Source: Malacoraja senta (lineage: Eukaryota). From it: a stretch of 64,000 nt of DNA. The stretch's first letter is position 1; every line of letters begins with the position of its first letter. Under the pieces are notes generated by a model. That model saw only the letters and a list, made by a program, of their open reading frames with translations. It had not been told where the DNA came from and ran no database searches. The DNA lies in contig CM075987.1 of the NCBI GenBank assembly GCA_038087875.1, positions 22,756,001 to 22,820,000 on the forward strand. Reading direction: 5' to 3'. Both the position numbers and the translations under genes were made by a program. Positions 1 through 61,395 of this stretch are shown here, piece after piece.

Positions 1-1524
1 TAAAGGCAATTAGGGATGGATGATTAAAGGGATGGGTCCGAAGAAGGGTCCTGACTCGAAACGTCACCTATCCATGTTCTCCGTGGATGTTGCCTGACCC
101 GCCTAGTTACTCCAGCACTTTGCGTCCTTTTTTAAAATGGTTAATTGATGTTGGGTTTGCCAGCAATATTTCCATTTTATGAATCATCTGTGCCCGATCC
201 CTTTTATTTATGAGTATTGGTCCTATTCATTAGTTCCAGACTCGTAAGGAGGACGCCTGCGATTCTGCCTGCTTGGTTTATGATTGTAATCAGACTGGGT
301 GGCTATGGCTCCCACAGTCAAAGATCTAGTAGCTAGTCAATATAGAGATGAGTCAGATCAGCAGCTTCCAACTTCAGGGCTGAGCTTCACAAAAGAGTTA
401 GGAGAACACAAACCAGGACACATTGCTAGCTTGCAGGCGGGAAATAGGAAAGGATTTCAGAAAAAATTATGGAGCGTTTGATCGGAGTCAATATGAGGGG
501 GCTCGGCAGAAGGCTTAGAGACCACCGAGCCCAGGTGTGACAAGCAAAAGGACCCAGGAGCAACATAAGAAGGATTGCCAGGATGGTGCCTGAATTGGAG
601 GGTATTAGCCACAAGGAGAGGTCAGAAAAACTGGGATTGTTCACTCTCCCGATGCCGGAGTTTGAGGGGAGATCGGATCGGATTTGACTGCTGTGTGGTG
701 TCTTTTAAATTGCTGTTTCTTCTTTTCTTTCCTTCTCTCCCACAAATATGTAATTACTGATTCTGTTCTGTTCTGGTTTGTAGTATTTTTGCACAAATCC
801 GCGAGCATTGCCACTTTTCATTTCACTGCACAGCTCGTATGCGTATGTGACGAATAAACTTGACTTGACTTGACTATATATATATATATATATAAAGCTA
901 TGACAGACAAAGATAGGGGAGACAGTTTTTTTCCCAGGTTATTAATGTCAAAGATTAGAGAGCACAGCTTTAAGTTGAGAGAGGCAAAATTTAGCGGAGA
1001 CGTGCGGGGCAAGATTTTGGAGCGAAACGTTGCCTCTTTCCTTCATTACCAGCGGTGGCAGTGGAAGCAGATAGGGGCATTTAAGAGGTTTTTAGACAGG
1101 CACACGGAAATGAAGGGAAGACAGGGGAATGGATCACTTGCAGGCAGAGGAGATTAGTTTATCTTGTCTGGCACAGAGGGCCATTGTGGGCCAAAGGGCC
1201 TGTTCCCGTGCTGTAATGTTCTCTGTAAGAAAAAAGTGATTCTATTCCGTGTGTGTTGATCTACAGCAGGCTGCTTCTGTTATGGTGGAAGCAAGTGGAA
1301 CAAGAACAATGGGATTGTGTAAATATTAGGATGGGGACAGAATTGTGCCGGAAAAAGGCAGAGTGGTTGCGATGAATGAACCCGGTGGGTGAAGTGAGAG
1401 GATGGGTCCAAAAATGAAAAAGGGTCTTAACCCGAAACGTCACCCATGCCTTCGCTCCAGAGTTGCTGCCTGTCCCGCTGAATTATTATGGCATTTTGTG
1501 TCGATCTTCGATGTAAAATAAATG

Positions 1525-2110
1525 CTTAATTTGTACATAAGCTGCTTCTTGGCCGTTCAGAGTGATGCGAGGCAGAGAAATATTTCCCAAACTCCAGCTT
1601 CCAAAATAAGGAAGGGAGATATCCTTTCCTGATTTCCGGAGTCCACACAAAACAGTTGGACTCGATGACCACCGAATTTTCATCAGGGCTTGAACCCAAG
1701 GTGGAGGAGGGGGGGGAGTGGGGGGGGGGAAATGAGAGGGGGAGAGTGGGAGTGGATGGGCGAGCGGGGCCGATAGGCATTCCCTCCGCTCGCCCATCTC
1801 GTGCCCATCCACGTCTGTCTGCCTGCAGCTGGAGGCGCGACAGGAAGCTGCCACCCAGATGTTTCCTGCCAGATTAGCGGCTTCAGTCACAGCACTGTGG
1901 GAAGAGTGACACAATGAGCCCCTCTTGTCCCCACCCCACCCCCGTCCCCTCCCCCACACGTCTCACTTGCAACACGACAGAGTCTTCAATATCAAACCTT
2001 TTCCCAGCCCTCAGTCTCTGTGCTAATTATAATCCCCCTGCAGCCTGGAACTCACTCCCAGAGTGGAGACTTGGCCAGGTTTGACACGGAGATCCCGAGA
2101 AAATGTTATC
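1525..2110. promoter_or_regulatory. Candidate intron-4 enhancer
   Basis: Repeat-free island with TGTGGGAA 1896-1903, two ETS-like cores (acaggaag, tttcctg), CAGCTG and ACAATG. Motif evidence only. Confidence 0.35.
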
Positions 2111-2134
2111 CCATAATGTGACAGGTGGCTGTCG

Positions 2135-2465
2135 ATCATGGTGGGGCAGCGGTAGAGTTGCTGCCTTACAGCGAATGCAGCGCCGGAGACCCGGGTTCCA
2201 TCCCGACTACGGGTGCTGTCTGTGCGGAGTTTGTACGTTCCTCCCCATGACCTGTGTGGGTTTTCTCCGAGATTGTCGGATTCCTCCCACATTCCAAAGA
2301 CGTACAGGGTTGTAGGTCAATTGGCTCGGTATATGTAAAAATGGTCCCTAGTGGGTGTAGGATGGTGTAAATGTGTGGGGATTGCTGGTCGGCACGGACG
2401 CGATGGGCCGAAGGGCCTGTTTCCGCGCTGTATTTCTAAACTAAACTAGACTAGACTAAACTAGC
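2135..2465 (+). mobile_element. tRNA-derived V-SINE (HE1-like)
   Basis: A/B-box head (gtggggcagcggtagag...ggttccatcc), V-domain (ggagtttgtacgttc...gtgggttttctcc) and (aaact)n tail. Confidence 0.85.
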
Positions 2466-2718
2466 AATTTTTCATCGACTTGACAGAAATGCTTTGTGTG
2501 ACGGCTGTTTACTTTGTACTAGTTTGTACCTTCTCCCTGTGACCGTGTGGGTTTTCTCCAGCAGCTCTGGTCTCCTGCCACATTCCAAAGACATGCAGGT
2601 TTGTAGGTGAATTGGCTTCAGTAAATAGTTGCTAGTGTGTAGGATAGAACCAGTGTAAGAGGTGAACGTGGGTCAGCACAGACTTGGTGGGCTGAAGGGC
2701 CTCTTTCCATGCTGTTCA

Positions 2719-3100
2719 TGAGTTCTAGGAGCAAAATTGGGCAATTCGGCCCATCAAGTCTACTCCATCGTTCAATCATGACTGATCTATCTTTCCCTCT
2801 CGATCCCATTCTCCTGCCTTCTCCCCATAACCCAACACCCGTACTAATCAACAATCTGTCAATCTCCGCCTTAAAAATATCCATTGACTTGGCCTCCACA
2901 GATGTCTGTGGCAATGAATTCCACCCATTCGCCACCCTCTGACTAAAGAAATTCCTCCTCATCTCCTTTCTAAAGGTACTTCCTTTTATTCCCAGACTGT
3001 GGCCTCTGGTCCTAGACTCTCCCACGTGTGGAAACTTCCTCTGCACATCCACCCTATCCAGGCCTTTCAGTATTCGGTGTTTCCATGAGGCCCCCCATCA
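2719..3100 (-). mobile_element. CR1 3' fragment just downstream of exon 4
   Basis: GESRTRGHSLGIKG...RNFFSQRVANGWNSLP. Confidence 0.85.
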
Positions 3101-3174
3101 TCCTTGTGAAAGGAGGATTTTACAAGCTGTGTCTGTGAACCAGACTAACGCTGGGCAGGGAGGGCAACACTTAC

Positions 3175-3513
3175 CGGGCAGGCAGGTGCAGTCGTAGTGG
3201 GCATCCCCCAGGGGTCGGCAGGTGCCTCCATTCTGACAGGGCGAGGGGGCGCAGGGCACGTAGCGGTCCTCACAGCGACGGCCGGTGTACTCGGGAGGGC
3301 AGGTGCACTGGTAGGAGCCGATCTCGTTCAGGCAGGTGCCGCCATTGCCGCAGGGCGACGGCGAGATGCCGCACTCGTTGACGTCCTGCTTGCAGATGGG
3401 CCCGTGGAATCCCGAGGTGCACATGCAGATGTAGTAGTCTTCGAACGCCACGCACTGCCCTCCGTTGGCGCAGGGGTTGGAGGCGCACGTGTCCGCCTGC
3501 TGGCACTGCTTGC
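3175..3513 (-). CDS. notch1: Notch receptor (notch1-like) exon 4, EGF4-EGF6
   Basis: 339 nt, acceptor ggtgcccAG, donor CCG|GTAAGT, phase 1/1, in frame with exon 3. Translates GKQCQQADTCASNPCANGGQCVAFEDYYICMCTSGFHGPICKQDVNECGISPSPCGNGGTCLNEIGSYQCTCPPEYTGRRCEDRYVPCAPSPCQNGGTCRPLGDAHYDCTCLPG, with a calcium-binding DVNEC motif. Confidence 0.93.
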
Positions 3514-3796
3514 CTGGGCACCGGAGCAAAGCAAGCACTTAGAGTCACAAACAGCGTGGAGACTGGCCCCATCGGCTCAACTAGCCCACACCCGCCAACG
3601 TGTCCCAGCTGCACTAATCCAACCAGCCTGCCTTTGGTCCACATCCCTCCAAACCTGTCCGATCCATGTACCTGCCTACCTGTTTCTTAAACGTTGGGAT
3701 AGTCCCAGCCTCAACTACCTCCTCTGGCAGCTCGTTCCATACACCCACCACCCTTTGTGTGAAAAAGTCAGATTCCTATTCAATCTTTTCCCCCGA

Positions 3797-4002
3797 GTTA
3801 GACACAAAACGCTGGAGTAACTCAGCGGGACAGGCAGCATCTCTGGAGAGAAGGAATGGGTGACGTTTCGGGTGGAGACCCTTCTTCAGACTGAAAGGTC
3901 ACCCATTCCTTCTCCCAAGATATGCTGCCTGTCCCACTGAGTTACTCCAGTATTTTGTGTCTATCTTCGGTTTAAACCAGCATCTGCTGTTCCTTCCTAC
4001 AC
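3797..4002. mobile_element. Hairpin PLE-derived insertion in notch1 intron 3 with minus-strand hammerhead core (3862-3889)
   Basis: Inverted arms. caatcttttccc is repeated on both sides (3781 and 4002). Confidence 0.75.
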
Positions 4003-8407: not shown

Positions 8408-8692
8408 AACTGGGGAAAGAACTGCAGATGCTGCAACAGCACCTTGGGTAGCTTACACCCCAACGGTATGAATATTGACTTCTCGAACTTCAAATAGCCC
8501 TCTTTCTCTCCACCCCTTCTCCCATCTCAGTTCTCCCACCAGTGTTACTGTCCCCGACCACATTCTATCTCTGTCCTCCCCACTCCCCTGACATCAGTCT
8601 GAAGAAGGGTCTCGACCCCAAACCTCACCCATTCCTTCTAACCAGAGATGCTGCTGCTTGTCCCGCTGAGTTACTCCAGCATTTTGTGTCTA
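8408..8692 (+). mobile_element. Penelope-like element 3' end nested in another PLE terminal repeat
   Basis: LGSLHPNGMNIDFSNFK* at ~8443-8496 and a degenerate hammerhead at ~8599-8626. Flanks repeat aacycrgtgactca. Confidence 0.75.
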
Positions 8693-9060: not shown

Positions 9061-9431
9061 TGTTTCCCTATCCCATGACTCTGTCCGAAGAAAGGTCTCG
9101 ACTCGAAACGTCACCTATTCCTTCTCTCCAGAGACGCTGAGTTACTCCAGCTTTTTGTGTCTATCTTCGGTGTAAACCAGCATCTGCAGTTCCTTCCTAC
9201 TCCTAACCGGAGGTGAGAGAGTGCGCCACCGAAACACAGTTGACACATTCAGACGATTTCTTTATGAGGGCGAAGAAATTCCTTATGTAAATATTAAAAC
9301 AAGGACAGAGTGTGATATTACAACGAGGGCCGGGTGTCGCATTTGCACCCAGATCTCGTTACCCCACCCGCTAAACCCACTTGGAGTAAATTTAGTCGGA
9401 TTGAGATCCCTGCTTTTATATTTGGGCCCCT

Positions 9432-10560: not shown

Positions 10561-11253
10561 TTGTCACGTGCACCGAGGTACAGTGAAACGTTTTTGATGC
10601 TGTATCTTTCAATCAATAAATCAATACAATTCAATATTGCCAGTGTTTTACCCAATAGAGTTCACACCTGAATTGGCACTGTGCTGGAGTAACTCAGCGG
10701 TCAGGCAGCATCTCTGGAGAACATGGATAGGCAATGTTTCGGATCGGGACCCTTCTTCAGATTCTACCTGACCCGCTGATTACTCCAGCACTTTTTTTTT
10801 GATGTTTCTATTTGGTAAAGCAGCATCTGCAGTTCCTCGTGTCGAGAGTGCACACCGGTCTTTACACAACCCTTCCCCCAATTACCACTTGTGTGGCCTC
10901 CCTGGGGTGACATCCCTTCCCTTGTTTGAGGGTTACTCTGGCGCTCAATGTCGGGCAGAGGAAAGACCCAGGTCTGTGGTCGTTCCCCCCCCTACAGAGA
11001 GCCCTCAAGTCGGCGGCTGCACCCACCCCCAGCACACACACACACGCCCTCCTGCAGTCTGGGACGTTGCTCTTTCTCTGCCGGCCCACCTTCCTCAAGC
11101 CAGGGACATTATTGAACCACCCACCGGTCAGTGAAATGTGTCTCCTGCGGCTGCCGGGTTCCCTCACCGCCCTGCGTGGATTCCACCGCCCCATTGTTGC
11201 AGCAAGCCGATGCTTCATGTCAGCTGTTGTTTGGTCGTGCGGCGAGGCTCAGG

Positions 11254-11314: not shown

Positions 11315-12576
11315 ATGCATGTCACCCTTGTTGTAAACATGCCCCGAACCTGAGTTTATTAAAATCATTCCTACATGAAAACATGCTGCCACGTTGTCCC
11401 CAGTGTAACAGCAATAACGTTGCAAACATGTCCTTCTTTGTACACCAAGTTTTGGGGGAGTCTGGAGTCTGTCTGAAGAAGGGTCTCGACCTGTAACCTC
11501 ACCTATTTCTTTTCTCCAGCGATGTAGTCTGACCCAGCTGGATGTTGTTACTCCAGCTTCGTGCGTGTTTTCTTGCAGTTAGTTTAGTTTTGCTTAGAGA
11601 TACCGCGCGGAAACGGCACCTTGTCCGAGACGACCCCGTACGTTGACACTATCCTACACGTTAGGGACAATATATTTTTTTTTAACCAAAGCCAATTAAG
11701 CTATAATCAGTACGTTTTTGGAGTGTGGGAAGAGACCGGAGCTCCCGGAGAAAACCCAGGAGAACGTACAAAGTCCACACAGACACAGCACCCGTGGTCA
11801 GGATCGAACCCGGGTATCTGGCGCTGGAAAAGGCAGCAACTCTATATCGCTGCCGCCCTAAGGTTATGGGAGAGGCAGAGCACGTCTCCTTGTAGTTCCC
11901 AGACCTGCAACTGGATTGTGATTTCCCCCCCCCCCCCCCCCCATAGTGGAGAGAAAAATCCCTCCAGGGTTTCTCCGGACTGCCCCCTGACTGCCCAATG
12001 TGTGTGTGTGTGTGTATGTGTGTGTGTGTGTTGGCCGGAGAGGTGGGGAATGCACCCGAGGTTCTATAACCGGGCCACTCCACACAGCCAACATTTACAC
12101 AGTCAGTGCAAGTTGTAAAATTAAAACGGCAGCCCCACCCTCCCTGTGTAACCAAACTCTGGCAAGAGTCAGCAAAAAGCAGCTCGGGGGGGAAACAGAG
12201 GGGGAGATTGTTTTGTTTTGAAAGGCTGTGATTGCAGCGTGCTTATTTATCATGCCCGCACTTGTTGCTGGTGGCACCGCCGATGACTGGAGGGGTCGAG
12301 AGATCACAGCGAGTTCTTGCAGGCTCGGATTGTCATCGGGATAATTAGCTCAGGTACTTGAGGCTTACACCTGTGTGTGGGGGCGTGTGTGTGTGTGCGC
12401 TGTTACCCAAGTGTTGCACGATGGTGGTCCCTACTAAGCCCCCCCCCCCCCCCCTAATCCTAAAATTGAGTTCAAATCCTAAAGTGGGGTGTGTGCGGAT
12501 TTTAAGTCAGTCATTTATAACAGAGAACGATAGACACAAAATGCTGGAGTAGCTCAGGCAGCATCTCTGGAGAGAC

Positions 12577-12622
12577 GGAATAGGTCTGAAGAAGGGTCTC
12601 GACCCGAAACGTCACCCATTCC
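12577..12622 (+). ncRNA. Minimal type I hammerhead ribozyme motif (PLE-derived)
   Basis: ggaauaggu CUGAAGA A GGGUC uc GACCC GAAA C GUC^ acccauucc: intact core, 5-bp stem II, stem I with 8 of 9 pairs, palindromic ACGU in place of stem III. Confidence 0.7.
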
Positions 12623-16518: not shown

Positions 16519-17435
16519 TAACTCACTCTTAAATACATTACGGCCTGGTTCGCCCAGGAACAAAGGAGATTTACAAAAAGTAGTGGACTTCGGAAGAAGG
16601 ATCTTGACCCAAAACGCACCCATTCCTTCTCTCCAGGGATGCTGCCTGTCCTGCTGAGTTACTCCACAATGTGGGAAGGATGTAGAGGTTTTGTAGTGGG
16701 TGAGAAACAGGTTCACTCGGACGTTACTTGGATTAGGGTGTATTATCTAGAAGGACAATTTGGGCGCTTGGATTGTTTACTCTGCAGTTTTGGAGTCTGA
16801 GGGGAGATATGATTGAAGTATATAAAATGATGAGAGGAACAGATTGGATAGAATCTTTTTCCAGGGTGTGAGTTTGAAGTGAGAGTGGAGAACTTTAAGG
16901 AGATTTGTGAGGCAAACTTTAATTTTTACACAGAGATAGTTGCCTGGAACATGCCGCCAGGGGAATGGTAGAAATGGATATGATAACAACATTTAAGAGG
17001 CATTTTGGGGGCACATACTGTTAACACGCAGGAATAGAGGCATATAGACCACATGCAGGCAGGTGGAAATCATTGGATCGGCACCATGGTCTGCACACAC
17101 ACGGTGGGCCGAATGGCCTGTTCTTGTGCTGTGCCGTGGTGTGTTCTATGATGTTTCCTCACTTTGACCTCGGCACAGTGGCACAGCGGTAGAGTTGCTG
17201 CCTCACAGCGCCAGAGACCTGGGTTCCATTCTGACCACGGGTGCTGTCTGTGTGGAGTCTGCACGTTCTCCCCGTGACCGCGTGGGTTTTCTCCGGGTGC
17301 TCCTGTTTCCTCCCACATTTCAAAGACTTGTGGTTTTGTAGGATAATTGGCTTCTGTGAATTGTCCCTAGTGTGTAGGGTAGTGTTACTGTATGGGGACG
17401 ATCGCTGGTCGGCACGGACTCGGTGGGCTGAAGGG

Positions 17436-18925: not shown

Positions 18926-20370
18926 AAGGCTGACGAAAGGTCATCAACCCGAAACAATGATCATTTTTGTCCCCACGTGCTGCCTGACCTGCTGAGTGCT
19001 TCTACCATCCTCTGCTATTTTTCACTTAAATACGTTTTATCCCATTTACTCAAGATACTATAGCAGAGATGCATATAACCCAGTTTTAAAAAAAAGTCTT
19101 GCCATCAACAGCAACAAAACTCATATCTAACCCTGCATCAAACTCTTGATAAAAGCCGGGTAATATCACCAGCTGCACATGAAGCGGGCTGTAATTATAT
19201 TATACACATCATTAGTTCCAGTGGCCTGCAGAATGCTGTCTCGTGCCAGGTTCGGTGATGTTAGACATGCAATCCCTTTTATAAATACAGTGAAAGATGC
19301 CAAGTGCTAGTATTTCATTCGAGCACAAAGTGCTGGAGTAACTCAATGGGTCATGCAGCATCTCTGGAGGACATGGATAGGCGACGCTTCGGGTCGGGAC
19401 TCTCCTTCAGAGTTCCTTGCATCTCTATTTTACTGCTTCACTGCGAGTCTGAAGAAGGGTCATGACATGAGACGTTGTCCATCCATGTATTCCGCAGATG
19501 CTGCCTGACCTGCTGAGTTACTCCGTCACTTTGTGTTCTAAGCAAGATTCCAGCATCTGCAGTTCCTTGTGTCACCATGATATTTCACTTCCTAATTAAG
19601 AGGCGCGCTCTCAAGTAGTTATTTCTTTCCTCGACAAACCTCAGCCATTCTTAAAGCGCCAGCACAATTTGTAGCTACTCACATAGAGTCAAAGAATCAT
19701 TGGGTCATACAGTGTGGAAACCAGGCCTTTGGCCCAACTTGCCCACAATTGCCCACATGTCCCATCTACACTAGTCCCACTTGCCTGCATTTGGCCCACA
19801 TCCCTCTAATCCTGTCCTATCCATATACCTGCCTAATTGCTTCTTAAACGTTGCAATAGTCCCTGCGTGGGACTATTCCTCTACGTGGAGTGCTTTTTCT
19901 GCTGGGGGTAAGTCTTCTATTCTGTTGGGCAATGACATTAACCGGAGAGACTCACCATTCGGACGACAGGCCGTGGTGATCAAGACCAACTTGGCTGGAG
20001 TCTGCTGTCTTGGTGTCACCTGTAGGACCCCTCTTGATCCTTGGTTTGATGGAAGAGATGCTCACCTGGGGCTTCCATTCCTTACCATTCTCCGGTGGCA
20101 GCCTGCGGTGAAACAGAGTGTCGTGCACGTTAGGGGAGGACAGGAATGGGCTTGCTACATCACTGTAAGTCGACACAGTCTAGACCTTTCACTCCGTCAG
20201 TGGTTTGGCGATACCACCCCAGGCAAGCAACTAAGGGGCTGATGTTCAACACATATGATTCAATGTTCTTTATTAAATGTCAAATACTAACGACAACCCA
20301 GAAGTGATGTGGGAAACTGGAGCAGCTGGAGGAAAAGCTCATAGTTGCAGGTGTAACATGTGGACAGACT

Positions 20371-27769: not shown

Positions 27770-27830
27770 CCAGTGAGGGTCCGTGTGTGTGTGTGTGTGT
27801 GTGTGTGTGGGACCTGTACCCCAGTGAGGG

Positions 27831-36790: not shown

Positions 36791-38127
36791 ATGAAACAAA
36801 CTTGCGATTACTAAACACAAATCTACCCGAATCTTCATTCTTGACCCCTCTTTCCCTAATCCTCATGTCCCATTCTCCCTCTTCCCCAGACCCCTATATT
36901 CCCTATATTCGGAATTCCCTTTCCCTGCCTGTGCCTCTAGCGCCTTGTCTGAAGCAGCTGCTAACTAAGGTGGGGAAAATACAGAGAAGCTGAGGGAGTA
37001 CATTAAATGACCTCTCTGATTACTTCACCATCGCGCTGTCTCCAGATTTCAAAGCCCGGAGGCTCATTTTCACTCGAAACTCAACCACAAATCAATTGTG
37101 TTTAAAAAAAAACATTTTAATGCACGAAGCCAGGGATTTGAAACTTTGTCATGGGAAACGCTTGCAACGTGGCTTCCACCTGTCCCTTCCTGCCCGTTCT
37201 TGTCTAGTTTCAACCATCAATTTTCATCTGTTTGCTTCTATCTGCTCAACCCCACTCAAGCAGTTACTTAAGACCATGACCTTATGTATAAAAAAACTTC
37301 AGCATCTAATCAAATCCCAGTGGTGGACTGGTTTACTACTAGTAAATATTCACCTTTAATACAGTAAATTATTCTATAGCAATAATACAGCAATATCCAA
37401 GGCCCTTCCTGCCAATGCAAATCAATAATACTTGATACCCTGAGATTGTAAAGTGTGACCCTCAACTTGATCACTGAGGCAGATTGCAAAGTTCAACATA
37501 TCGAAAGGCGTAGGATGGGAATTCCAGACCATTGACTCAAAGCAGAGGCTTTCAAATGCCCCCCCCCCCCCCACCTGTATCCACCTATCACTTGCCAGGC
37601 TTTGTCCCACTCCCATCTCTGTTCCCGTTTTCTCTCCCCTACGACAATGAGTCTGAGGAAGTGTCCCGACCTGCAACGTCGCCTATCCGTGTGTAGGACG
37701 GAACTGCAGATGCTGGTTTAAACCGAAGATAGGCACAAAATGCTGGAGTACCTCAGCGGGGCAGGCAGCATCTCTGGAGAGAAGGAACGGGTGACGTTTC
37801 GGGTCGGGTCCGAAGAAGGGTCTCGACCCGAAACATCACCCATTCCTTCTCTCCAGGGATGCTGCCTGTCCCGCTGAGTTACTCCAGCAAGTGGTGCCTT
37901 TTTGTAAACCAGCATCTGCAGTTCTTCGTGGCTCTATCTGAGAGCAGAGTTGTCCCTGGTGGAAGAAGGAAAATCAGGAGAAGTACGAAAGAGGCGATTA
38001 GAAGGACTAATTGTGGGAACGTCGAGCAGACACACGACAAGGGCAGCGGTGTCTGTGGCAGCGCGAGAGGAAGCTGGAGCAAATATTTGAAGTGTAATCG
38101 GTCGTGACTGAGTGGTGCGCACACTTG

Positions 38128-41880: not shown

Positions 41881-42049
41881 CACTAACAAGCATGACACGT
41901 GTAGGAAGGAACTGCAGATGCTAGTTTAAACCCAAGATAGACACAAAATGCTGGAGTAACTCAGCGGGACAGGCAGCATCTCTGGGGAGAAGGAATGGGT
42001 GACGTTTCGGGTCGAGGCCCTTCTTCAGACAAGAAGGGTCTCGACCCAA

Positions 42050-43945
42050 TAGACAATAGACAATAGACAATAGGTGCAGGAGTAGGCCATTCGGCCCTTC
42101 GAGCCAGCACAGCCATTCAATGTGATCATGGCTGATCATCCCCAATCAGTACCCCGTTCCTGCCTTCTCCCCATATCCCCTGACTCTGCTATTTTTAAGA
42201 GCCCTATCTATCTCTCTCTTGAAAGCATCCAGAGAACCTGCCTCCACCGCGTAGAGAATTCCACAGACTCACCACTCTCTGTGAGAAAAACTGTTTCCTC
42301 GTCTCCGTTCTAAATGGCTTACTCCTTATTCTTAAACTGTGGCCCCTGGTTCTGGACTCCCCCAACAACGGGAACATGTTTCCTGCCTCTAGCGTGTCCA
42401 AGCCCTTAACAATCTTATATGTTTCAATGAGATTCCCTCTCATCCTTCTAAACTCCAGAGTGTACAAGCCCAGCTGCTCCATTCTCTCAGCATATGACAG
42501 TCCCGCCATCCCGGGAATTAACCTTGTAAACCTACGCTGCACTCCCTCAATAGCAAGAATGTCCTTCCTCAAATTAGGGGACCAAAACTGCACACAATAC
42601 TCCAGGTGTGGTCTCACTAGGGTTCTGTACAACTGCAGAAGGACCCAAAACGCCACCCATTCCTTCTCTCCAGAGATGATGCCTGTCCCGCTGAGTGACT
42701 CCAGCTTTTAGTGTCTCACTGAGCATGACACTATTGAATGCACGCAGGCAATAACAGATACCCAGGAGTGAGTTGCAGGCTACATTGAAATAAATGGCAC
42801 AGAGCTCATGGGTCATAGAAACATAGAAACATAGAAAATAGGTGCAGGAGTAGGCCATTCGGCCCTCCGAGCCTGCACCGCCATTCAATATGATCATGGC
42901 TGATCATGCAACTCAGTATCCTGTACCTGCCTTCTCTCCATACCCCCTGACCCCTTTAGCCACAAGGGCCACATCTTACTCCCTCTTAAATATAGCCAAT
43001 GAACTGGCCTCAACTACCTTCTGTGCAGAGAATTCCACAGATTCACCACTCTCTGTGTGAAAAAAGATTTTCTCATCTCGGTCCTAAAAGACTTCCCCCT
43101 TATCCTTAAACTGTGACCCCTTGTTCTGGACTTCCCCAACATCGGGAACAATCTTCCTGCATCTAGCCTGTCCAACCCCTTAAGAATTTTGTAAGTTTCC
43201 ATAAGATCCCCCCTCAATCTTCTAAATTATAGCGAGTACATAGAAACATAGAAACATAGAAATTAGGTGCAGGAGTAGGCCATTCGGCCCTTCGAGCCTG
43301 CACCGCCATTCAATATGATCATGGCTGATCATCCAACTCAGTATCCCGTACCTGCCTTCTCTCCATACCCTCTGATCCCTTTAGCCACAAGGGCCACATC
43401 TAGCTCCCTCTTAAATATAGCCAATGAACTGGCCTCGACTACCCTCTGTGGCAGAGAGTTCCAGAGATTCACCACTCTCTGTGTGAAAAAGTTCTTCTCA
43501 TCTCGGTTTTAAAGGATTTCCCCCTTATCCTTAAGCTGTGACCCCTTGTCCTGGACTTCCCCAACATCGGGAGCAATCTTCCTGCATCTAGCCTGTCCAA
43601 CCCCTTAAGAATTTTGTAAGTTTCTATAAGATCCCCTCTCAATCTCCTAAATTCTAGAGAGTATAAACCAAGTCTATCCAGTCTTTCTTCATAAGACAGT
43701 CCTGACATACCAGGAATCAGTCTGGTGAACCTTCTCTGTACTCCCTCTATGGCAAGAATGTCTTTCCTCAGATTAGGAGACCAAAACTGTACGCAATACT
43801 CCAGGTGTGGCCTCACCAAGACCCTGTACAACTGCAGTAGAACCTCCCTGCTCTTATACTCAAATCCTTTTGCTATGAATGCTAACATACCATTCGCTTT
43901 CTTCACTGCCTGCTGCACCTGCATGCCTACTTTCAATGACTGGTG
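42050..43945 (-). mobile_element. Three stacked CR1 3' fragments
   Basis: LLQLYRxLVRPHLEYCVQFWSP...RRFTRLIPGM...SLEFRRxRGDLIETYKI ORFs, with tails at ~42050, ~42815 and ~43240. Confidence 0.92.
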
Positions 43946-45144: not shown

Positions 45145-45660
45145 ATTAGCATTTTAACTCCCCCCCCCCCCCCCATTCCCACACTGACCTTTCTGTCCTG
45201 GCCTCCTCCATTGTCAAAGTGAGGCCCAACTCAAATTGGAGGAACAGCATCTCATATTTCGCTTGGGCAGATTACAACCCAGCGCTATGAATATTGATTT
45301 CTCTAACTTCAAGTAACCATTGGTTTCCCTCTCTCTCCCTCTCCCTCCCCCACCCTAGTTCTCTGACTAGTTCTACTATCCTCCTGATTAAAGATTACTG
45401 ATTGTATGCCGAGTTGTCACCTTCCCTCAGCTAACAATGAACCATTCTACATTTCCTTTAACATCATCTGCTTTGATCTGTCATTTTCACGCGTTACCCT
45501 TCCATATCTCGACACTCCCTCTCCCCTGACTCTCAGTCTGAGGAAGGGTCTCAACCCGAAATGTCACCGTTCCTTCTCTCCAGAGATGCTGCCTGACCCG
45601 CTGAGTTACTCCAGCATTTTGCGTCTATGTTCGGTGTTAACCAGCATCTGCAGTTTCTCC
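45145..45660 (+). mobile_element. Penelope-like element 3' end: GIY-YIG C-terminus plus terminal repeat with hammerhead motif
   Basis: 45203-45316 translates LLHCQSEAQLKLEEQHLIFRLGRLQPSAMNIDFSNFK*, a typical PLE endonuclease end, preceded by frameshifted HFNS..HSHTDLSVL. Hammerhead-like ctgaggaagggtctcaacccgaaatgtc starts at 45538. Confidence 0.85.
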
Positions 45661-52052: not shown

Positions 52053-55001
52053 TCATCTGACTTGAATATAGTTAGGAATGGGAAGTAAATGGGCAAAGTT
52101 ACAAAGTATGTGAAAGAAGACTTAAAACACTGGACAACATGGATAGGTGACCTTTCCAGTCGGGACTTGTCCATGTTCTCCAGAGATGCTGCCTGACCCG
52201 CTGAGTTACTCCAGCACCTTGTGCCTTTTCTGGTAAACCAGCATCTGCAGTTACATTCATCTCCATGTATTCAGAGGGATAGGATAGGAAAAAGAAGAGG
52301 GCTGTGGAGTTGGTAGTGAAGGTAAGCACAAAAAGCTGGAGTAACTCAGCGGGACAGGCAGCATCTCTGGAGAAAAGGAATGGGTGACGTTTCGGGTCGA
52401 GACCTCTCTTCAGATAGTGATCTTGCTTTGATGAAGCCTCTGTTGTGCTGCCTGGTCCCTGGCCTTGGGATACTGACGGTACTGTATAAATAAGTTGTTT
52501 TTGTTGTTATTGGGTAAGACAGCGGAGAATAAATCAATTGGAGTTCTCTTGCAGATCATCAGCCGGAGAGCCAAACAGGAAAATGCATGTGTGGATGGGA
52601 CCAAAGGTCAGTTCTCTGCATAGAGTCTTTGTTGGTGTTAAAGAACAAGTAACATTCCTATTCCTTCATTGTTTATAACATCACCCTAATATGAAGGAGA
52701 TGGAGGATTATATCAGGGGGAATGTACAAATGATATTGCTGCAATGGAAGAGGTTTATAGTCCAGAGCAAAATGACTGAGGCATTGTTACATCAGAGGAG
52801 ACAGCACCTCACGTGTGGAAGACCGATAGAGTTGATGCCTCACAGCGCCAGAGACCCGAGTTCGATCCTGACTACGGGTGCTGTCTGTACGGGAATTGTA
52901 AGTTCTCACCGTGACTGCGTGGGTTTTCTCCAGGAGCTCCAGTTTCCTCCCACATCCAAAGATGTACAGATTTGTAGGTTAATTGGCGTGGTATAAATGT
53001 CAATTGTTCCTTAGTGTGTGTAGGGTAGTGTTTTGTGTGCGGGGATCGCTGGTCGACGTACACTCGGTGGGCCGAAGGGACTGTTTGCATGCTGACTCGG
53101 TGTCGAAAAGAAACTGTTTGGAAAAAACGCACAAACTGAGAAACTGCTATTTTCCCAACGTGCCAATACTTTTCCCAGAGCGACAGGACAAGGTGTAAAT
53201 TCCGATGGCCCAGGACTCCAGGCTAATCCAGGAGTTATTGGATACTCCGACTGGGGTGGAGGTGGATAGAGCAACCCTCTGACTAACCTCACTGGGCGAC
53301 CCCTGCTCTCTCCCTGAAATATAACGAGAGACCCTGATACAGCAGAGAAATGCCACGTCTGGAATGCAGAGTCACTTCCCCTCAACCCGGTTCCCAACCA
53401 CTCATGTTTCTCTCACCCCAATATATCGAGAGTTATTATTACAGTACTCTGCTTTAAGTCTTCCGTGACGACAAGTGACACCCAGGTCACTGGGTTTACC
53501 GGAGTTCCCAGGGTGTTCCATCAATGGACGGATTCCAACCTTGCCACCAGCACATCCTTACCCCAGCACCAGAGGGTGCTTGCTCACATAAGTGATAGAA
53601 CCAGAATTAGGCCATTCAGCCCATCAAGTCTACTCCGCCATTCAATCATGGCCGATCTATCTTTCCCTCTCATAGAAACATAGAAAAATAGGTGCAGGAG
53701 TAGGCCATTCGGCCCTTCGAGCCAGCACCGCCATTCAATATGATCATGGCTGATCATCTAAAATCAGTACCCCATTCCTGCCTTTTCCCAAATATCCCTT
53801 GATTCCTGTCGCCCTAAGAGCTAAATCTAACTCTCTCTCTCTCTCAACCCCAATCTCATGCTTTCTCCTCATACCCCTCACCACTAACTCTCCTATACCT
53901 CATAGACTCATACCTCAGATACTTTCACAATTCCACCATCCCATCCCTGAGGGCCAAACATTTAACTTCCAAGGTCACAACATATTTTCCTAAGCCACGG
54001 CCAATCTCGCAACCTGAGAACTGATCACTAAAATCCTTCCTTGATGAAGCTGTTCCCACCCTGACTTTGGGATGCTGACCGTGTGGTATTAATTTACTTT
54101 AGTTTTAAGAGATACAGCATGGAAATAGGCCCTTCGGCCCACCAAGTCCGTGCCAACCAGTACTTTAGTTTTTATCCTACACACTAGGGGCAATTTACAG
54201 AAGCCAATTAACCTACAAACGTACGTCTTTGAGATGTGGGAAGAAACCGGAGCACCCAGAGAAAACCCACGCGGTCCACAGGGTGAACGTACAAACTCCG
54301 TACAGACAGCACCCATAGTCAGGATTGAACCCGGGCCTCTGGCGCTGGAAGGCAGCAACTCTACCGCAGCGCCACCGTTCCGCCCCCAAGTGTTCTTGAT
54401 GTTATTGAGGGGCAAAGGGCAGAAGAATCAATCAGTTTAACAAACACACAAAGCGCTGGAGTAACTCAGTGGGTCGGGCAGTATCCCTGGAGGACATGGA
54501 TTGGTGACGTTTCGGATCAGAAGAAGGTTCCTCCACAGATGCTGCCCAACCCGCTGAGTTACTCCAGCACTTTGCGTCTATTTGCAAACCAGCTTCTGCA
54601 TTTCATTGTGTCTACTAGAATCAATCGGAAATTCCCTTCTAAATCTCCAGCCCAAGGGCAGAGCAGGAAAGTGAGTAAGTGGGGAAAAAAACAAGCTCAG
54701 TTCTCTTTCCCATTTAAATCGAAGAATGATTAGTGCTGATGTGATCCTGATCAATAATCCCGCAGATGTGAGTAGAAACAACACCACTGCATTTGGAGAA
54801 CCTGGGTTCTATTCAACAAATAATATGGATGTAAAAATCTAGGATCAGTAGATCATAAGATCATAAGTGATAGGAGCAGAATTAGGCCATTCGGCCCATC
54901 GTCCACTCCGCCATTCAATCATGGCTGATCTATCTCTCCCTCCTAACCCCATTCTCCTGCCTTCTCCCAACACCTCTGACATCCGAACTAGTCTGGACAT
55001 T

Positions 55002-58465: not shown

Positions 58466-59174
58466 TTACGGGTGTATATAGAATGTATTAAACTGATACG
58501 GTGCCACAATGCTAAACAGGAAATAATGAGTTATTTTTACACAATTGTTTATTAATTCGTGTGTTCACATCACAGCATTGTCTGGAGTCTGAAGAAGGCT
58601 CTCGACCCAAAATGTCGGCTGTCCATGTCCTTTAGAGATGCTCCCTGACCATCTGAGTTTCTACAGCACTTTGGTTGTTTTTTTTTGTTGCAAACCAGCA
58701 TTTCAATTCCTGGTGCCTGCATCGCCTTAATCTTGTTGTGATAAATGTATAAAACTGCAGCAGTGAAAGAGTCAGGCCCATTTATGGCTTGCATCTGGCT
58801 TCTTACACATCGGGCCAAGAGTATTTAATTGTCATATGAGCCGTCAATAGAAGAATGAAAATCTTACTTGCAGCAGTCTAACAAGAAGTTACACACGGGT
58901 AAATATGTAATAGCCACCAATACAATAAATGTATACCCTTATTACTAGGTGACCACAATAGTGCAATCATTTTAGTCGCTAGTGCAACCAAAGATACAGT
59001 CCAAGCAGATCCTTGTTGGTGTACAGCTCCAGACACAACACACCACAATGAGCAACTACAGCTGGGAAACAGCAACCTTGCTGACTCCAATCTCTCAGTT
59101 CCTTTTATTATACTAGTTCCTTCTTCCAAGCGCTAACTGACTTTTGTACCACATCAAATGTCAATACGTGGAGT

Positions 59175-59572
59175 GAAACATAGAAAATATGTGCAGGAGG
59201 AGGCCATTCGGCCCTTCGAGCCAGCACCGCCATTCATTGTGATCATGGCTGATTGTCCCCTATCAATAACCCGTGCCTGCCTTCTCCCCGTATCCCTTGA
59301 CTCCACTAGCCCTTAGAGCTCTATCTAACTCTCTCTTAAATCCATCCAGTGACTTGGCCTCCACTGCCCACTGTGGCAGGGAATTCCATAAATTCACAAC
59401 TCTCTGGGTGAAAAGGTTTTATCTCACCTCAGTCTTAAATGACCTCCCCTTTATTCTAAGACTGTGACCCCTGGTTCTGGACTCGCCCAACATTGGGAAC
59501 ATTTTTCCTGCATCTAGCTTGTCCAGTCCTTTTATAATTTTATATGTTTCTATAAGATCACCCCTCATCCTT
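59175..59572 (-). mobile_element. CR1 3' fragment
   Basis: RMRGDLIETYKIIKGLDKLDAGKMFPMLGESRTRGHSL. Confidence 0.88.
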
Positions 59573-60310
59573 CCAGGGATTCTGGTCTGTGTTATGGACT
59601 GGGCCACATCTACAACTGAGCTGGTTCCAGACCAAGCTGTGATGCAATCCGACAGTATGCTTTCTATGCTTCAGATGTCTGTAAGAGTTATTGGAGACAT
59701 TCCACATTTCCTCATTCTGAGAAAGTAAAGGCATTACTACGCTGTTTTGGCAGTCTCTTCAATATGGTTGGTCCACCACTGATCATGGGTTGTATTTAGG
59801 CCTTGGAACTTGAAACTCTCAACCAGTTCCGCTTTGGCACCGTTGATGCTGATTGGGGCATGTACTCCACCACGCCTCCTGAAGTCAATAGTGTTTAAGA
59901 AGGAACTGCAGATGCTGGAAAATCCCAGGTACACAAAACTGCTGGAGAAACTCAGCGGGTGCAGCAGCATCTATGGAGCGAAGGAAATAGGCAACGTTTC
60001 GGGCCGAACCTCGTTGCCTATTTCCTTCGCTCCATAGATGCTGCTGCACCCGCTGAGTTTCTCCAGCATTTCTGTGTCCTGATGCCAATAACTAGCTCCT
60101 TTGTCTTGCTGCCATTGAGTAGTTATTGCCCTGACACCATGATACTAAGTTCTCTCTGTCTTTGTGGTGCTCCGTTTCATCATTGTTCACCACAGTAGCG
60201 TCATCTCAAAATGTGACGATGGTGTTAGAGTAGGATTTGGCCGCACGGTCCTAGTGTGTAGAGTGTGCAGTGGGGGACTGAGAACACATCTGTGTTCACC
60301 ATTATTGTGG
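59572..60310 (-). mobile_element. Degenerate Rex1/Babar RT fragment
   Basis: IDFRRRGGVHAPISINGAKAELVESFKFQG...WTNHI motif. Confidence 0.7.
59888..60080. mobile_element. Hairpin PLE-derived insertion inside a Rex1 fragment
   Basis: Inverted arms centred ~60005, same subfamily as the insertions at 25376 and 36421. Confidence 0.7.
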
Positions 60311-60534
60311 AGGATGCAGTGTTGTAGGTGTCACATGGTCTTGGCATGTGGACTAGTGTAGATGGGGTACCTTGGTCGACATGAACAAACTGGGCCGAGG
60401 GGCCTGTTTCTGTGCTGTATGTCGACTCTTTATGGTGAAAGGTTCGGCATTTTAAGATACCAGTTATTGTAAAATCGCAGGACACCTTGTCACGTTGTTA
60501 CAGAAGATACAAGGACCTGTTCCCCATCATTATA

Positions 60535-60735
60535 CTGCAGTCACATTCCACCACATTTCTCCTCCCCCTCCTCTTTTGGAAGGAACCATCCCTCAGTGAC
60601 TCCCTGGACCTCTCCACCAACCACCCCCCATCTCACGGTGCTTTTCCCTGCACTCGGAGGAGGTGCATTTCTTGTTCTTTTACCTCTTCCTCTTACCCCC
60701 AACAGTCTCTATCCAGGTGAAGCAGCATTCATGCA
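60535..60735 (+). mobile_element. Degenerate Neptune-type PLE RT-EN linker with zinc knuckle
   Basis: The ORF reads ...SLSDSL...HGAFPCTRRRCISCSFTSS, matching the CxxxxCxxC linker of Neptune PLEs. PLE terminal repeats follow at 60760-60975. Confidence 0.6.
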
Positions 60736-61395
60736 ACGCCACAGAAAAACAACCCGGCAGGTGCTGGAATCTTAAGCAGAATACAAAGCGCTGGAGTAAC
60801 TCAGCGAGGCAGGCAGCATCTGGAGGGGCAATTGACAGGCCACGATTCAGGCCGCGACCCTTCTTCAGACTCACCTTAAACTTTTACTCCTTGTCTCTTT
60901 CCACAGTTGCTCCCTGACCTGCTGAGAGTTTCCACCATTTCTGGTTTCTGTTTCAGATTTCCACCATCTGCAGGGTTTGGGTCATATTAATGCAAATCTT
61001 CACAACACACGTTTACAACATGTCTCTGCCACATTGTTACCTTAAAACAGGGCTTTGTGTCTTATTACAATAGTACGAGCCTCTGTGTGTAGACTGACTC
61101 TATGCAATGATAATGTACGAATAATAAAATTAGTCGTCATATCATAATAACAATAGCAATAATAATATCCAAACCATTTGCCTCTAAAATAATCCAAACT
61201 ATATCAAATAATATTACAGAATTGACCATATTAATTAAGTTGAGAGGTATATATTGTATTAACATATATATGTATAAGGCAGACACAAAATGCTGGAGTA
61301 ACTCAGCAGGACAGGCAGCATCTCTGGAGAGATGGAATGGGTGATATTTCGGGTCGAGACCCTTCTTCAGACTGGTCATGTGTATGTATGTGTGT

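What the first reader, a model, noticed from the sequence alone, without database searches (positions are those of the whole stretch)
30..61370. About 25 Penelope-derived minimal hammerhead ribozyme motifs dispersed through Notch introns
Seen: the common repeat ctgaagaagggtctcgacccgaaacgtc parses as CUGANGA + extra A + stem II (GGGUC/GACCC) + GAAA + C-GUC^. Plus-strand copies start near 38, 8599, 9085, 11473, 12586, 19449, 22565, 34524, 37653, 37810, 45538 and 58589. Minus-strand copies lie near 3862, 10733, 19383, 25443, 31143, 42001, 52386, 60842 and 61343. At 8443 and 45203 the motif directly follows a GIY-YIG C-terminus. Established: Penelope-like elements carry minimal hammerheads whose palindromic stem III is proposed to work as a dimer, and an extra residue after A9 occurs in natural hammerheads. 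Inference: this is a very high-copy ribozyme-bearing Neptune-type family in this lineage. Most copies are decayed.
Basis: partly seen in the sequence, partly recalled or inferred. Interest (0 to 1): 0.8.

Follow-up and report, generated by a model that had tools for sequence, protein, structure and literature searches.

The report
Penelope-element hammerhead motifs, very high copy
The repeated 28-base motif is the minimal hammerhead-ribozyme motif carried at the 3' end of a Penelope-like retrotransposon that has scattered about 200,000 mostly decayed copies through this genome, a known kind of element seen here at unusually high copy number.

Summary
All 21 listed positions are copies of one repeat of about 135 nt, and five further copies carry the motif. 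The profile finds 52 arms, about 8% of the window. The motif has 201,852 matches at 3 or fewer mismatches in the 1.94-Gb genome, against 0 in the control.

The repeat is the 3' terminal part of a Penelope-like element (PLE). The element encodes a reverse transcriptase followed by a C-terminal GIY-YIG endonuclease with the Neptune-type CX4CX2C linker. An intact tandem array elsewhere in the genome places the motif between successive ORFs.

PLE relatives on metagenome contigs carry hammerheads at the same place, with covarying helices I and II. A covariance model built only from those relatives recovers the window's copies.

Three points count against full membership:
- No Rfam hammerhead model matches.
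- Helix I is only 2 bp here.
- Cleavage is untested, and no RNA data were usable.

Only 6 of 26 window copies keep the core and helix II, and only 3 keep every feature. The intronic copies are most likely dead fragments.

Verdict: a new member of a known kind. It is notable for its copy number and for the sharp 5' end of its short copies.

The parts
12586..12613 (+). Exact copy of the 28-nt motif. Core, helix II, ACGU and GUC are intact. It lies in a head-to-head inverted pair whose left arm supplies a long helix I.
   Evidence: E 1.7e-8
3862..3889 (-). Motif copy with 1 mismatch in the helix II loop. All hammerhead features are intact. Inverted pair. Same strand as the Notch gene.
   Evidence: E 6.8e-9
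25443..25470 (-). Motif copy of subfamily B, the same variant as the intact tandem array (GGGTTTCGGCCC, GUU site). All features are intact. Inverted pair.
45538..45565 (+). Motif copy still joined to the PLE 3'UTR and the endonuclease C-terminus. ACGU has decayed to AUGU.
45188..45316 (+). C-terminal fragment of the PLE GIY-YIG endonuclease, 42 codons plus stop.
   Evidence: tblastn to the intact ORF, 62% identity, E 1.6e-8
8432..8497 (+). Decayed C-terminal fragment of the same endonuclease (...GMNIDFSNFK*).
8599..8626 (+). Motif copy joined to the PLE 3'UTR. GAAA is decayed.
31143..31170 (-). Motif copy joined to about 170 nt of PLE 3'UTR. Core is decayed.
34524..34551 (+). Motif copy with 1 mismatch in helix II. 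Inverted pair. Short type of 3' end.
42001..42028 (-). Motif copy with 1 mismatch in helix II. Preceded by a 17-nt inverted stub and a (GTCTATT)n run.
37810..37837 (+). Motif copy with 2 mismatches (C3-U4 box and ACGU). Inverted pair.
61343..61370 (-). Motif copy with 2 mismatches. Its 5' side abuts a (TG)n microsatellite.
52386..52413 (-). Motif copy with 2 mismatches. Solitary, with unrelated 5' flank.
9085..9112 (+). Motif copy with 3 mismatches and a short 3'UTR extension.
11473..11500 (+). Motif copy with 3 mismatches. Solitary, with unrelated 5' flank.
22565..22592 (+). Motif copy with 3 mismatches. Part of both a head-to-head and a tail-to-tail inverted arrangement.
58589..58616 (+). 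Motif copy with 3 mismatches. Third tail variant (..TCCATGT). Solitary.
38..65 (+). Decayed motif copy at the window edge.
   Evidence: E 2.2e-6
10733..10760 (-). Decayed motif copy. Core and helix II are kept, ACGU is lost. Inverted pair.
19383..19410 (-). Decayed motif copy, head-to-head with 19449+ across a 38-nt spacer.
19449..19476 (+). Decayed motif copy, partner of 19383-.
37653..37680 (+). Decayed partial copy (unit positions 2-41) with a 3'UTR-like 5' flank.
60841..60868 (-). Decayed motif copy.
1414..1441 (+).
16591..16618 (+).
18930..18957 (+).
32032..32059 (-). Inverted pair.
42633..42655 (+). Copy with most of helix II deleted.
3098..3538 (-). Open frame holding a Notch EGF-repeat exon. 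This is the host gene, not part of the element.

Best explanation
The motif is the minimal type I hammerhead of a Neptune-type Penelope-like retrotransposon (PLE).

**Where it sits.** In the intact element the motif lies in the spacer between tandem ORFs. It starts about 116 nt after the stop codon, and the predicted cut is about 137 nt before the next start codon. It reads C3-A9 (CUGAAGA), one extra A, a 4-bp helix II closed by G10.1-C11.1, G12-A14 (GAA), the palindrome A15.1-C-G-U16.1, and then C or U at position 17.

**Proposed mechanism (inferred from published PLE hammerheads, not shown here).** A single copy cannot close helix III. In multimeric transcripts of tandem arrays two copies would pair ACGU with ACGU. 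Each would then cut after GUC or GUU and release unit-length RNA.

**How the dispersed copies arise (partly shown).** Reverse transcription appears to start inside the RNA, about 65 or about 100 nt downstream of the cut site. This gives two classes of 3' end. The cDNA then runs 5'-wards, and most copies stop 2-5 nt upstream of C3. The result is a short 'hammerhead plus tail' fragment, often with an inverted, 5'-truncated partner.

The roughly 26 copies in the Notch introns are such fragments. Most are mutated, largely at their three CpGs. They probably have no role in Notch.
For: **Copy number.** 15 window matches against 0 in shuffles. Genome counts are 63,439 at 1 or fewer mismatches and 201,852 at 3 or fewer, with 0 in the backwards controls.

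**PLE link.**
- 25 of 29 loci fetched with the endonuclease-end plus 3'UTR query carry the motif at the expected distance. The other 4 gave no match to a substitutions-only pattern.
- The ORFs show reverse transcriptase followed by a C-terminal GIY-YIG domain.
- Relatives of 880-930 aa include P0007 and P0052, which pass Pfam cut-offs for both domains.
- The CX4CX2C linker and the CxxC between GIY and YIG are present. These are the Neptune/Nematis and PLE marks according to PMC8557442.

**Intact array.** It has at least 3 tandem units of 3,997 nt. Two aligned units differ at 3 of 3,604 positions. The ORF is 1,238 codons from its first ATG, and the motif lies between ORFs. 22 of the 147 scored N-terminal matches lie in open frames of 1,200 codons or more.

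**Hammerhead homology.**
- In 80 metagenome loci of PLE relatives (310,383 nt) a minimal-hammerhead descriptor finds 23 hits, 21 on the ORF strand. It finds 0 in reversed sequence and 0-1 in each of 20 shuffles.
- The nearest relatives have the motif 110-126 nt after the ORF or about 150 nt before it.
- On 11 aligned motifs, 82.8% of cells pair against 56% in shuffles (0 of 500 shuffles reach it). The covariation score is 0.745 against 0.197.
- Helix I was not part of the descriptor. Its three innermost pairs form in 11, 10 and 9 of 11 sequences.
- A covariance model built from the 9 relatives alone gives 20 window hits at E of 1 or less, and 19 of them fall on repeat copies. The best E-values are 6.8e-9 and 1.7e-8.

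**PLE-style insertions.**
- 15 head-to-head inverted pairs among 52 arms.
- Profile hits end mostly near unit positions 96-107 or 130-139.
- The array's last copy ends at about position 98, while internal copies run on.
- Contigs from four other coded organisms show loose ends 2-5 nt before C3 and at both 3' ends.

This matches the tandem, inverted and 'tail' signatures described in PMC8557442 and PMC11167929.
Against: - No Rfam hammerhead family matches, at gathering score or at E up to 10.
- Helix I is only 2 bp (U-A, G-C) in both subfamilies when the native 3'UTR lies upstream. Relatives have 3-5 bp.
- Predicted lowest-energy folds of the native context are not the hammerhead fold. The 5' half of the motif can pair with the start of the tail instead.
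- Helix II pairing in the alignment was imposed by my descriptor, so it counts for little. Only helix I and the model search are independent.
- No cleavage data exist. All public runs found were contigs with no RNA on record.
- Genomic copies do not begin at the predicted cut site. None of the 52 arms truly starts at unit position 34: the one hit reported there actually starts at about position 38.
- Published work found low in vitro activity for metazoan PLE minimal hammerheads (PMC4209133). It also found that hammerhead mutants did not affect insertion in vitro, and that no RNA-seq reads ended at the cut site in Anolis (PMC11167929).
Confidence: 0.6

Rival explanations
1. The motif descends from a PLE hammerhead but no longer cuts RNA in this lineage. 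It would be kept because the same bases serve another purpose at the element's terminus. That purpose could be a transcript start or promoter element, or a structure that the element's protein recognises.
For: - Helix I is reduced to 2 bp, against 3-5 bp in relatives.
- A competing fold exists in the native context.
- Copies have a sharp 5' end 2-5 nt upstream of C3. An RNA starting there would have almost no 5' strand for helix I.
- No genomic copies begin at the cut site.
- In Anolis, hammerhead mutants did not change insertion in vitro (PMC11167929, passages).
Against: - All 13 core positions, the extra base, G10.1-C11.1 and the ACGU palindrome are intact in both the older and the young, intact subfamily.
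- The three substitutions between the subfamilies are all structure-neutral: U-A to U-G, C-G to U-G, and H17 C to U.
- A 2-bp helix I is already described for the Drosophila virilis Penelope hammerhead (PMC4209133).
Confidence: 0.3
2. The short copies of about 130 nt are not random 5'-truncated PLE copies. They are a distinct non-autonomous unit (solo pseudo-LTR, SINE-like or retrozyme-like). The unit would be transcribed from its own start just upstream of the hammerhead and copied by the PLE enzyme through the shared tail. This is compatible with either view of catalysis.
For: - Of 26 window copies that contain the motif start, about 6 continue into the PLE 3'UTR, about 10 abut an inverted arm, and 9 have unrelated flanks within 5 nt of C3. 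One lies at the window edge.
- The same boundary appears as loose ends in contigs of three of the four other coded organisms that were laid.
- The motif has about 200,000 matches genome-wide, while the first look found 9,449 candidates for the N-terminal part of the ORF. Both figures are lower bounds.
- A 2026 preprint argues that animal retrozymes are non-autonomous PLE derivatives.
Against: - No head-to-tail arrays of the short unit occur in the window (0 of 52 arms). Only isolated 'goes back' joints were seen in other organisms' contigs. Retrozymes are tandem.
- Strong 5' truncation is normal for PLEs (PMC8557442).
- No transcript data exist.
Confidence: 0.3
3. The resemblance to a hammerhead is a coincidence in an abundant repeat.
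For: - No Rfam hammerhead match.
- The motif is short, and it was noticed because it looks like a hammerhead.
Against: - The repeat belongs to the one retroelement class known to carry such motifs.
- Relatives have covarying hammerheads at the same place.
- A model trained without this genome's sequences recovers the copies at E down to 6.8e-9.
Confidence: 0.02

Closest known systems
Minimal hammerheads of metazoan Penelope-like elements (Cervera and De la Pena 2014, PMC4209133; parts 1-2 of 4 read)
   Same: - CUGANGA and GAAA boxes.
- An unpaired base between positions 9 and 10.1.
- The G10.1-C11.1 pair.
- No helix III of its own, but a palindrome at 15.x-16.x.
- Location in the repeats that flank the PLE ORF.
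- Thousands of dispersed solitary copies, some close together on opposite strands.
   Different: - Helix II is 4 bp rather than 6-8 bp.
- Helix I is 2 bp rather than 4-5 bp.
- The motif sequence is rather uniform here, where the paper stresses high variability.
- The count of about 200,000 at 3 or fewer mismatches compares with about 4,000 (coelacanth) and 9,000 (Xenopus) in that paper. Those figures came from a different search method.
Drosophila virilis Penelope hammerhead (same paper)
   Same: - Helix I of only 2 bp.
- High sequence uniformity, in a genome with recently active elements.
[quoted passage not shown]
   Different: - The fly motif has a bulge inside helix II and a 2-nt palindromic insertion in helix III.
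- It abuts an intron. No intron was looked for here.
Poseidon element PAc of Anolis carolinensis (Frangieh et al. 2024, PMC11167929; passages read)
   Same: - Tandem pseudo-LTR/ORF arrangement with the hammerhead near the ORF junction.
- Two reverse-transcription start sites some tens of bases apart, downstream of the hammerhead. These explain the 'tail' and two classes of 3' end.
   Different: - PAc belongs to the Penelope/Poseidon clade, which lacks the CX2-5CxxC linker.
- Its ORF starts inside the hammerhead. Here the first ATG lies about 137 nt after the cut site.
- Biochemistry exists for PAc and none exists here.
Animal non-LTR retrozymes (Cervera and De la Pena 2020, PMC7229834, listing only; Li et al. 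2026 preprint, abstract and Results part 1)
   Same: - Short, non-coding, hammerhead-bearing units related to PLE termini.
- Monomers are dispersed, including in introns.
   Different: - Retrozymes are head-to-tail tandem repeats with fuller type I hammerheads and give circular RNAs.
- Here the short units are solitary or head-to-head inverted.
Rfam hammerhead families
   Same: The catalytic core letters.
   Different: No model matches even at E up to 10. The motif lacks helix III and has almost no helix I.

Membership tests
PLE minimal hammerhead (PMC4209133) | Conserved core: C3 U4 G5 A6 N7 G8 A9 ... G12 A13 A14 A15.1 ... U16.1 H17 | tested here: met
   Intact in window 12586+, 3862- and 25443-, and in the intact array. 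It is decayed in most other window copies: only 6 of 26 keep the boxes plus helix II.
PLE minimal hammerhead (PMC4209133) | Unpaired base between positions 9 and 10.1 | tested here: met
   An extra A is present here. 10 of the 11 aligned motifs have A at that column and one has C.
PLE minimal hammerhead (PMC4209133) | Helix II closed by G10.1-C11.1 | tested here: met
   GGGU/ACCC in subfamily A and GGGU/GCCC in subfamily B, 4 bp each. G-C at that pair in 11 of 11 sequences, but my descriptor required it.
PLE minimal hammerhead (PMC4209133) | Palindromic 15.x-16.x in place of helix III (dimer model) | tested here: met
   ACGU in both subfamilies and in 8 of the 9 relatives.
PLE minimal hammerhead (PMC4209133) | Helix I of about 4-5 bp (2 bp in D. 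virilis) | tested here: inconclusive
   Only U-A and G-C form with the native 3'UTR upstream. Relatives have 3-5 bp with covariation.
PLE minimal hammerhead (PMC4209133) | Located in the repeats on both sides of a PLE ORF | tested here: met
   The tandem array in C2340 has the motif 116 nt after one ORF's stop. The predicted cut is about 137 nt before the next ATG.
PLE minimal hammerhead (PMC4209133) | Self-cleavage after H17, as a dimer | not testable with these tools
   No raw RNA reads were available. The folding result does not settle it.
Endonuclease-containing Penelope-like element | Reverse transcriptase followed by a C-terminal GIY-YIG endonuclease in one ORF | tested here: met
   RVT_1 and GIY-YIG occur in that order. 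They score below Pfam cut-offs on this genome's ORFs and above them on the relatives P0007 and P0052. 140 longer relatives were found at E of 0.001 or less.
Endonuclease-containing Penelope-like element | Two cysteines of the CCHH motif between GIY and YIG | tested here: met
   ...NLIYCIRCSRCQLIYIGET... in the intact ORF. The feature is defined in PMC8557442.
Endonuclease-containing Penelope-like element | Partial tandems (pseudo-LTRs), inverted 5'-truncated partner, optional 30-40 bp tail | tested here: met
   A tandem array of at least 3 units. 15 head-to-head pairs among 52 arms. Two classes of 3' end about 35-40 nt apart.
Neptune clade of PLEs | CX2-5CxxC linker upstream of GIY-YIG (absent in Penelope/Poseidon) | tested here: met
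   CNRKRCNTC in the intact ORF. C797, C802 and C805 are invariant in 14 relatives.
Neptune clade of PLEs | Placement with Neptune reference sequences in a reverse-transcriptase phylogeny | not tested
Nematis shares the linker.
Rfam hammerhead families | Score at or above the family's gathering threshold | tested here: not met
   No hammerhead hit at gathering score or at E up to 10.
Animal non-LTR retrozymes | Head-to-tail tandem arrays of the short hammerhead-bearing unit | tested here: not met
   0 of 52 arms in the window are in head-to-tail register.

The most novel reading that the evidence does not exclude
The unit of about 130 nt ('hammerhead plus tail') is a separately transcribed, non-autonomous retroelement whose RNA begins 2-5 nt before C3. 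The ribozyme motif would then mark the transcript start and would have no 5' strand for helix I. It could cut only when another RNA, or an inverted partner as in copy 12586, supplies that strand. With about 200,000 copies this would be the most abundant ribozyme-bearing repeat reported in a vertebrate. It would also be a natural system of trans- or partner-completed hammerheads.
Probability: 0.2. Interest if true: 0.55.

Novelty: new member of a known kind. Interest (0 to 1): 0.3.

Why it matters
This adds a vertebrate genome in which a PLE hammerhead motif reaches about 10^5 copies. The same genome also holds intact, nearly identical tandem elements. That pairing makes it a good natural system for an open question: what PLE hammerheads do.

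The question stands because these motifs cut poorly in vitro and were dispensable for insertion in the one biochemical study. The sharp 5' end of the short copies just upstream of the ribozyme, the two 3' ends, and the frequent inverted partners are concrete, testable clues to how PLE RNA is made and copied.

For annotation, the repeat explains about 8% of this window. It also explains several spurious microRNA-like hairpin hits.

Tried and rejected
- **Rfam.** No hammerhead at gathering score or at E up to 10. The E-value hits to plant microRNA families fall partly on the inverted pairs and are hairpin artefacts.
- **RNA evidence.** No RNA holder was listed. All 24 runs were Logan contigs of uncertain kind, so starts, ends and expression could not be read. 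Depths are not copy numbers and were not used as such.
- **Fetching more intact arrays.** Two smaller fetches went through.
- **Array ends.** The 5' end of the C2340 array was not reached, because the extra 1.6 kb is still array.
- **First set of ORF-bearing loci (L071-L076).** These turned out to be old, 5'-truncated copies without recognisable flanking repeats.
- **Constraint from variable sites.** Comparing the motif with the tail gave no signal: 1 listed site in 28 nt against about 5 in 98 nt. Substitutions between subfamilies A and B gave none either.
- **Folding.** The predicted dimer does not adopt the double-hammerhead form. Only copy 12586 folds as a hammerhead on its own.
- **Literature.** The motif strings gave 0 papers. 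A search for 'hammerhead ribozyme', 'Penelope' and 'shark' gave one irrelevant review. A search on chondrichthyan transposable elements gave nothing on this repeat. Repbase and Dfam could not be searched.
- **Earlier scan notes.** None were found.

Full report
**1. The observation**

The 28-mer CTGAAGAAGGGTCTCGACCCGAAACGTC occurs 15 times in the window at 3 or fewer mismatches, against none in 100 shuffles. Flank alignment shows it is the 5' part of a longer repeat that runs about 105 nt further 3'.

A profile of that unit finds 52 hits, covering 5,139 nt or 8.0% of the window. Of the 52 hits, 26 contain the start of the motif: the 21 listed plus 1414+, 16591+, 18930+, 32059- and 42633+.

The host gene is a Notch homologue on the minus strand. 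Genome-wide the motif has 63,439 matches at 1 or fewer mismatches and 201,852 at 3 or fewer. The pattern read backwards gives 0. The window's 15 copies compare with about 6.7 expected from the genome mean, so Notch is not singled out.

**2. Anatomy of the copies**

Among the 52 arms there are 15 head-to-head inverted pairs. Usually one arm starts 2-5 nt upstream of C3, and the other lacks its first 11-23 (or more) positions.

The 26 copies that hold the motif start fall into these groups:
- about 6 continue upstream into a shared pyrimidine-rich sequence;
- about 10 abut an inverted arm;
- 9 have unrelated flanks within about 5 nt of C3;
- 1 lies at the window edge.

Profile hits end mostly near unit positions 96-107 or 130-139. 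This suggests two classes of 3' end about 35-40 nt apart.

**3. Link to a Penelope-like element (PLE)**

Upstream of three copies (8599+, 31143-, 45538+) lies a shared 3'UTR. At two of them there is also the end of an ORF...EEQHLIFRLGRLQPSAMNIDFSNFK*. It stops at 45316, and a decayed version stops at 8497. The motif begins 221 and 101 nt later.

Using that ORF end plus 3'UTR as a query, the genome gave 7,196 first-look candidates. 25 of the 29 other fetched loci carry the motif at the expected place. Their differences cluster at the motif's three CpGs, as expected for old, unselected copies.

The frames upstream read as a GIY-YIG endonuclease. Longer frames give RVT_1 followed by GIY-YIG, below Pfam's cut-offs. 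Relatives of 880-930 aa from public assemblies share 40-52% identity, and P0007 and P0052 pass both cut-offs.

The ORF has the CxxC between GIY and YIG and a CX4CX2C linker. PMC8557442 gives these as the mark of canonical PLE endonucleases and of the Neptune and Nematis clades. The linker is absent in Penelope/Poseidon. No phylogeny was run, so 'Neptune-type' rests on motifs alone.

**4. An intact array**

A search with the N-terminal part of a relative found 9,449 first-look candidates. 22 of the 147 scored places lie in open frames of 1,200 codons or more.

One locus, contig C2340, holds at least three tandem units of 3,997 nt. Two aligned units differ at 3 of 3,604 positions. Each unit reads in this order:
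- an ORF of 1,238 codons from its first ATG;
- the stop codon, then 116 nt of 3'UTR;
- the motif CTGAAGAAGGGTTTCGGCCCGAAACGTT;
- about 100 nt of tail;
- the next ORF's ATG, about 137 nt after the predicted cut.

The array's last copy ends at about unit position 98, while internal copies run on. This subfamily (B) is also the variant at window 25443-. It differs from the common window variant (A) at three motif positions, and all three are structure-neutral: U-A to U-G and C-G to U-G in helix II, and C to U at position 17.

So the motif lies on both sides of the ORF, as published for PLEs.

**5. Is it a hammerhead?**

The parse follows the published PLE minimal hammerhead (PMC4209133). It has both boxes, an extra base after A9, G10.1-C11.1, and the palindrome ACGU where helix III would be.

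To test homology rather than likeness, I fetched 80 loci of PLE relatives from metagenome contigs and scanned them with a descriptor. It found 23 hits in 310,383 nt, 21 of them on the ORF strand. Reversed sequence gave 0, and each of 20 shuffles gave 0-1.

In the nearest relatives the motif lies 110-126 nt after the ORF or about 150 nt before it. It reads ...GA-N-helix II-GAAACGU(C/U).

Eleven aligned motifs gave these results:
- 82.8% of cells pair, against 56% in shuffles (0 of 500 shuffles reach it);
- the covariation score is 0.745 against 0.197, and slid controls give 0.07-0.16.

Helix II pairing was required by my descriptor and so proves little. Helix I was not required, yet its three innermost pairs form in 11, 10 and 9 of 11 sequences, with four or five pair types at each.

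A covariance model built from the 9 relatives alone gave 20 window hits at E of 1 or less. 19 of them fall on repeat copies, and 11 have E of 0.0013 or less. The best E-values are 6.8e-9 and 1.7e-8. The model's E-values are rough because calibration was shortened.

**6. What does not fit**

- No Rfam hammerhead model matches.
- With the native 3'UTR upstream, helix I is only U-A and G-C in both subfamilies. Relatives have 3-5 bp.
- Lowest-energy folds of the native context pair the motif's 5' half with the start of the tail instead. Only copy 12586 folds as a hammerhead, because its inverted arm happens to end where it can serve as a long helix I. That is 1 of 15 pairs.
- Genomic copies do not start at the predicted cut site.
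- Only 6 of the 26 window copies keep the boxes and helix II, and only 3 keep everything.
- No RNA data could be used.

Contigs from runs of four other coded organisms do carry the unit at 80% likeness or more. Only one variable place is listed inside the 28 nt, although 27 rows of that table were not shown. Loose ends lie 2-5 nt before C3 and at both 3' ends. These organisms are coded and may be close relatives.

**7. Mechanism**

*Shown:*
- The motif belongs to a Neptune-type PLE.
- It lies between tandem ORFs.
- It is homologous to covarying hammerheads of related PLEs.
- The dispersed copies are short 3' terminal fragments with PLE-style tandem, inverted and two-ended architecture.

*Inferred from the literature:*
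- Two motifs in a multimeric transcript pair through ACGU and cut after position 17 (PMC4209133).
- Reverse transcription starts internally at two sites downstream of the hammerhead, which gives the 'tail' (PMC11167929).

*My own inference, untested:*
- The sharp 5' end just upstream of C3 reflects an RNA 5' end. This could be the transcript start in the pseudo-LTR, so that priming at the first tail yields 'solo' units of about 100 or 135 nt.

Confidence, point by point:
- About 0.9 that this is a PLE hammerhead homologue.
- About 0.4 that it still cuts in vivo.
- Little chance that the intronic copies matter to Notch.

**8. Comparison and novelty**

PLE minimal hammerheads have been known since 2014, including in Neptune elements of fishes. 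Reported counts are about 4,000 in coelacanth and 9,000 in Xenopus (PMC4209133). A 2026 preprint links animal retrozymes to PLE termini and sampled one cartilaginous fish.

This is therefore a new member of a known kind. The unusual points are these:
- a count of about 2 x 10^5;
- the uniformity of the motif;
- the 2-bp helix I;
- intact, nearly identical tandem elements in the same genome.

I found no paper holding the motif string. Repbase, Dfam and the 2014 supplement were not checked.

Noticed in passing
window 7954-8153 and 44906-45105: Two runs of exactly 200 N. Each lies 280-350 nt upstream of a PLE endonuclease C-terminal fragment. They may be assembly gaps at repeats or withheld stretches. 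The rest of both PLE copies may be hidden there.
   Followed up: no
window 12512-12716: In this inverted pair the left arm ends where its reverse complement of the tail start abuts C3. This gives the hammerhead a long helix I, and the predicted lowest-energy fold is then the hammerhead fold. Only 1 of the 15 pairs is built this way.
   Followed up: partly
window 34441-34608, 25403-25523, 36480-36598, 59950-60059: Sub-threshold Rfam hits to plant microRNA precursor families (MIR1858, MIR1507). They fall on head-to-head inverted pairs of the repeat and are artefacts of long hairpins.
   Followed up: partly
window 26003-26132 and 38710-38893: Two other near-perfect palindromes score on both strands against microRNA-like Rfam models. 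They are not copies of the hammerhead unit. Their nature is unknown.
   Followed up: no
window 61375-61445 and 42029-42060: Copy 61343- abuts a (TG)n microsatellite. Copy 42001- abuts a (GTCTATT)n run on its 5' side. This fits the microsatellite insertion bias reported for PLEs with the CX2-5CxxC linker (PMC8557442).
   Followed up: no
window 27601-28387, 47902-48261, 54992-56017, 57118-58342: Long blocks of a degenerate tandem repeat that is open in several frames (peptide-like ...GTGPTHTDPHW... / ...VWDLYPSEGQC...). Unrelated to the hammerhead unit.
   Followed up: no
window 17488-17790(+), 42204-42707(-), 43469-43948(-), 51500-51805(+): Open frames with ...LEYCVQFWSP...RTRGHSL...FFTQRVV...WN.LP... 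By recall these look like C-terminal parts of CR1-like LINE reverse transcriptases. This was not tested with any tool.
   Followed up: no
window 44461-44877(+): An open frame with ...KSPGPDGLHPRVLKE...PLFKKG... ends at the N run. By recall it looks like the start of a LINE reverse-transcriptase domain, a different element from the PLE fragment that follows the gap. Not tested.
   Followed up: no
unit positions 8-16 with 34-46 (for example window 12588-12596 with 12614-12626): The motif's 5' half (GAAGAAGGG) is complementary to the first bases after the cut site (CCCAUUCCUUC). This gives a competing fold that would sequester the core. It could be an inactive conformer or a coincidence.
   Followed up: partly
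window 60574-60687(+): A further weak PLE ORF fragment matches residues 1077-1117 of the intact ORF at 49% identity (E 3e-4). It lies next to the decayed copies at 60760-60940.
   Followed up: no
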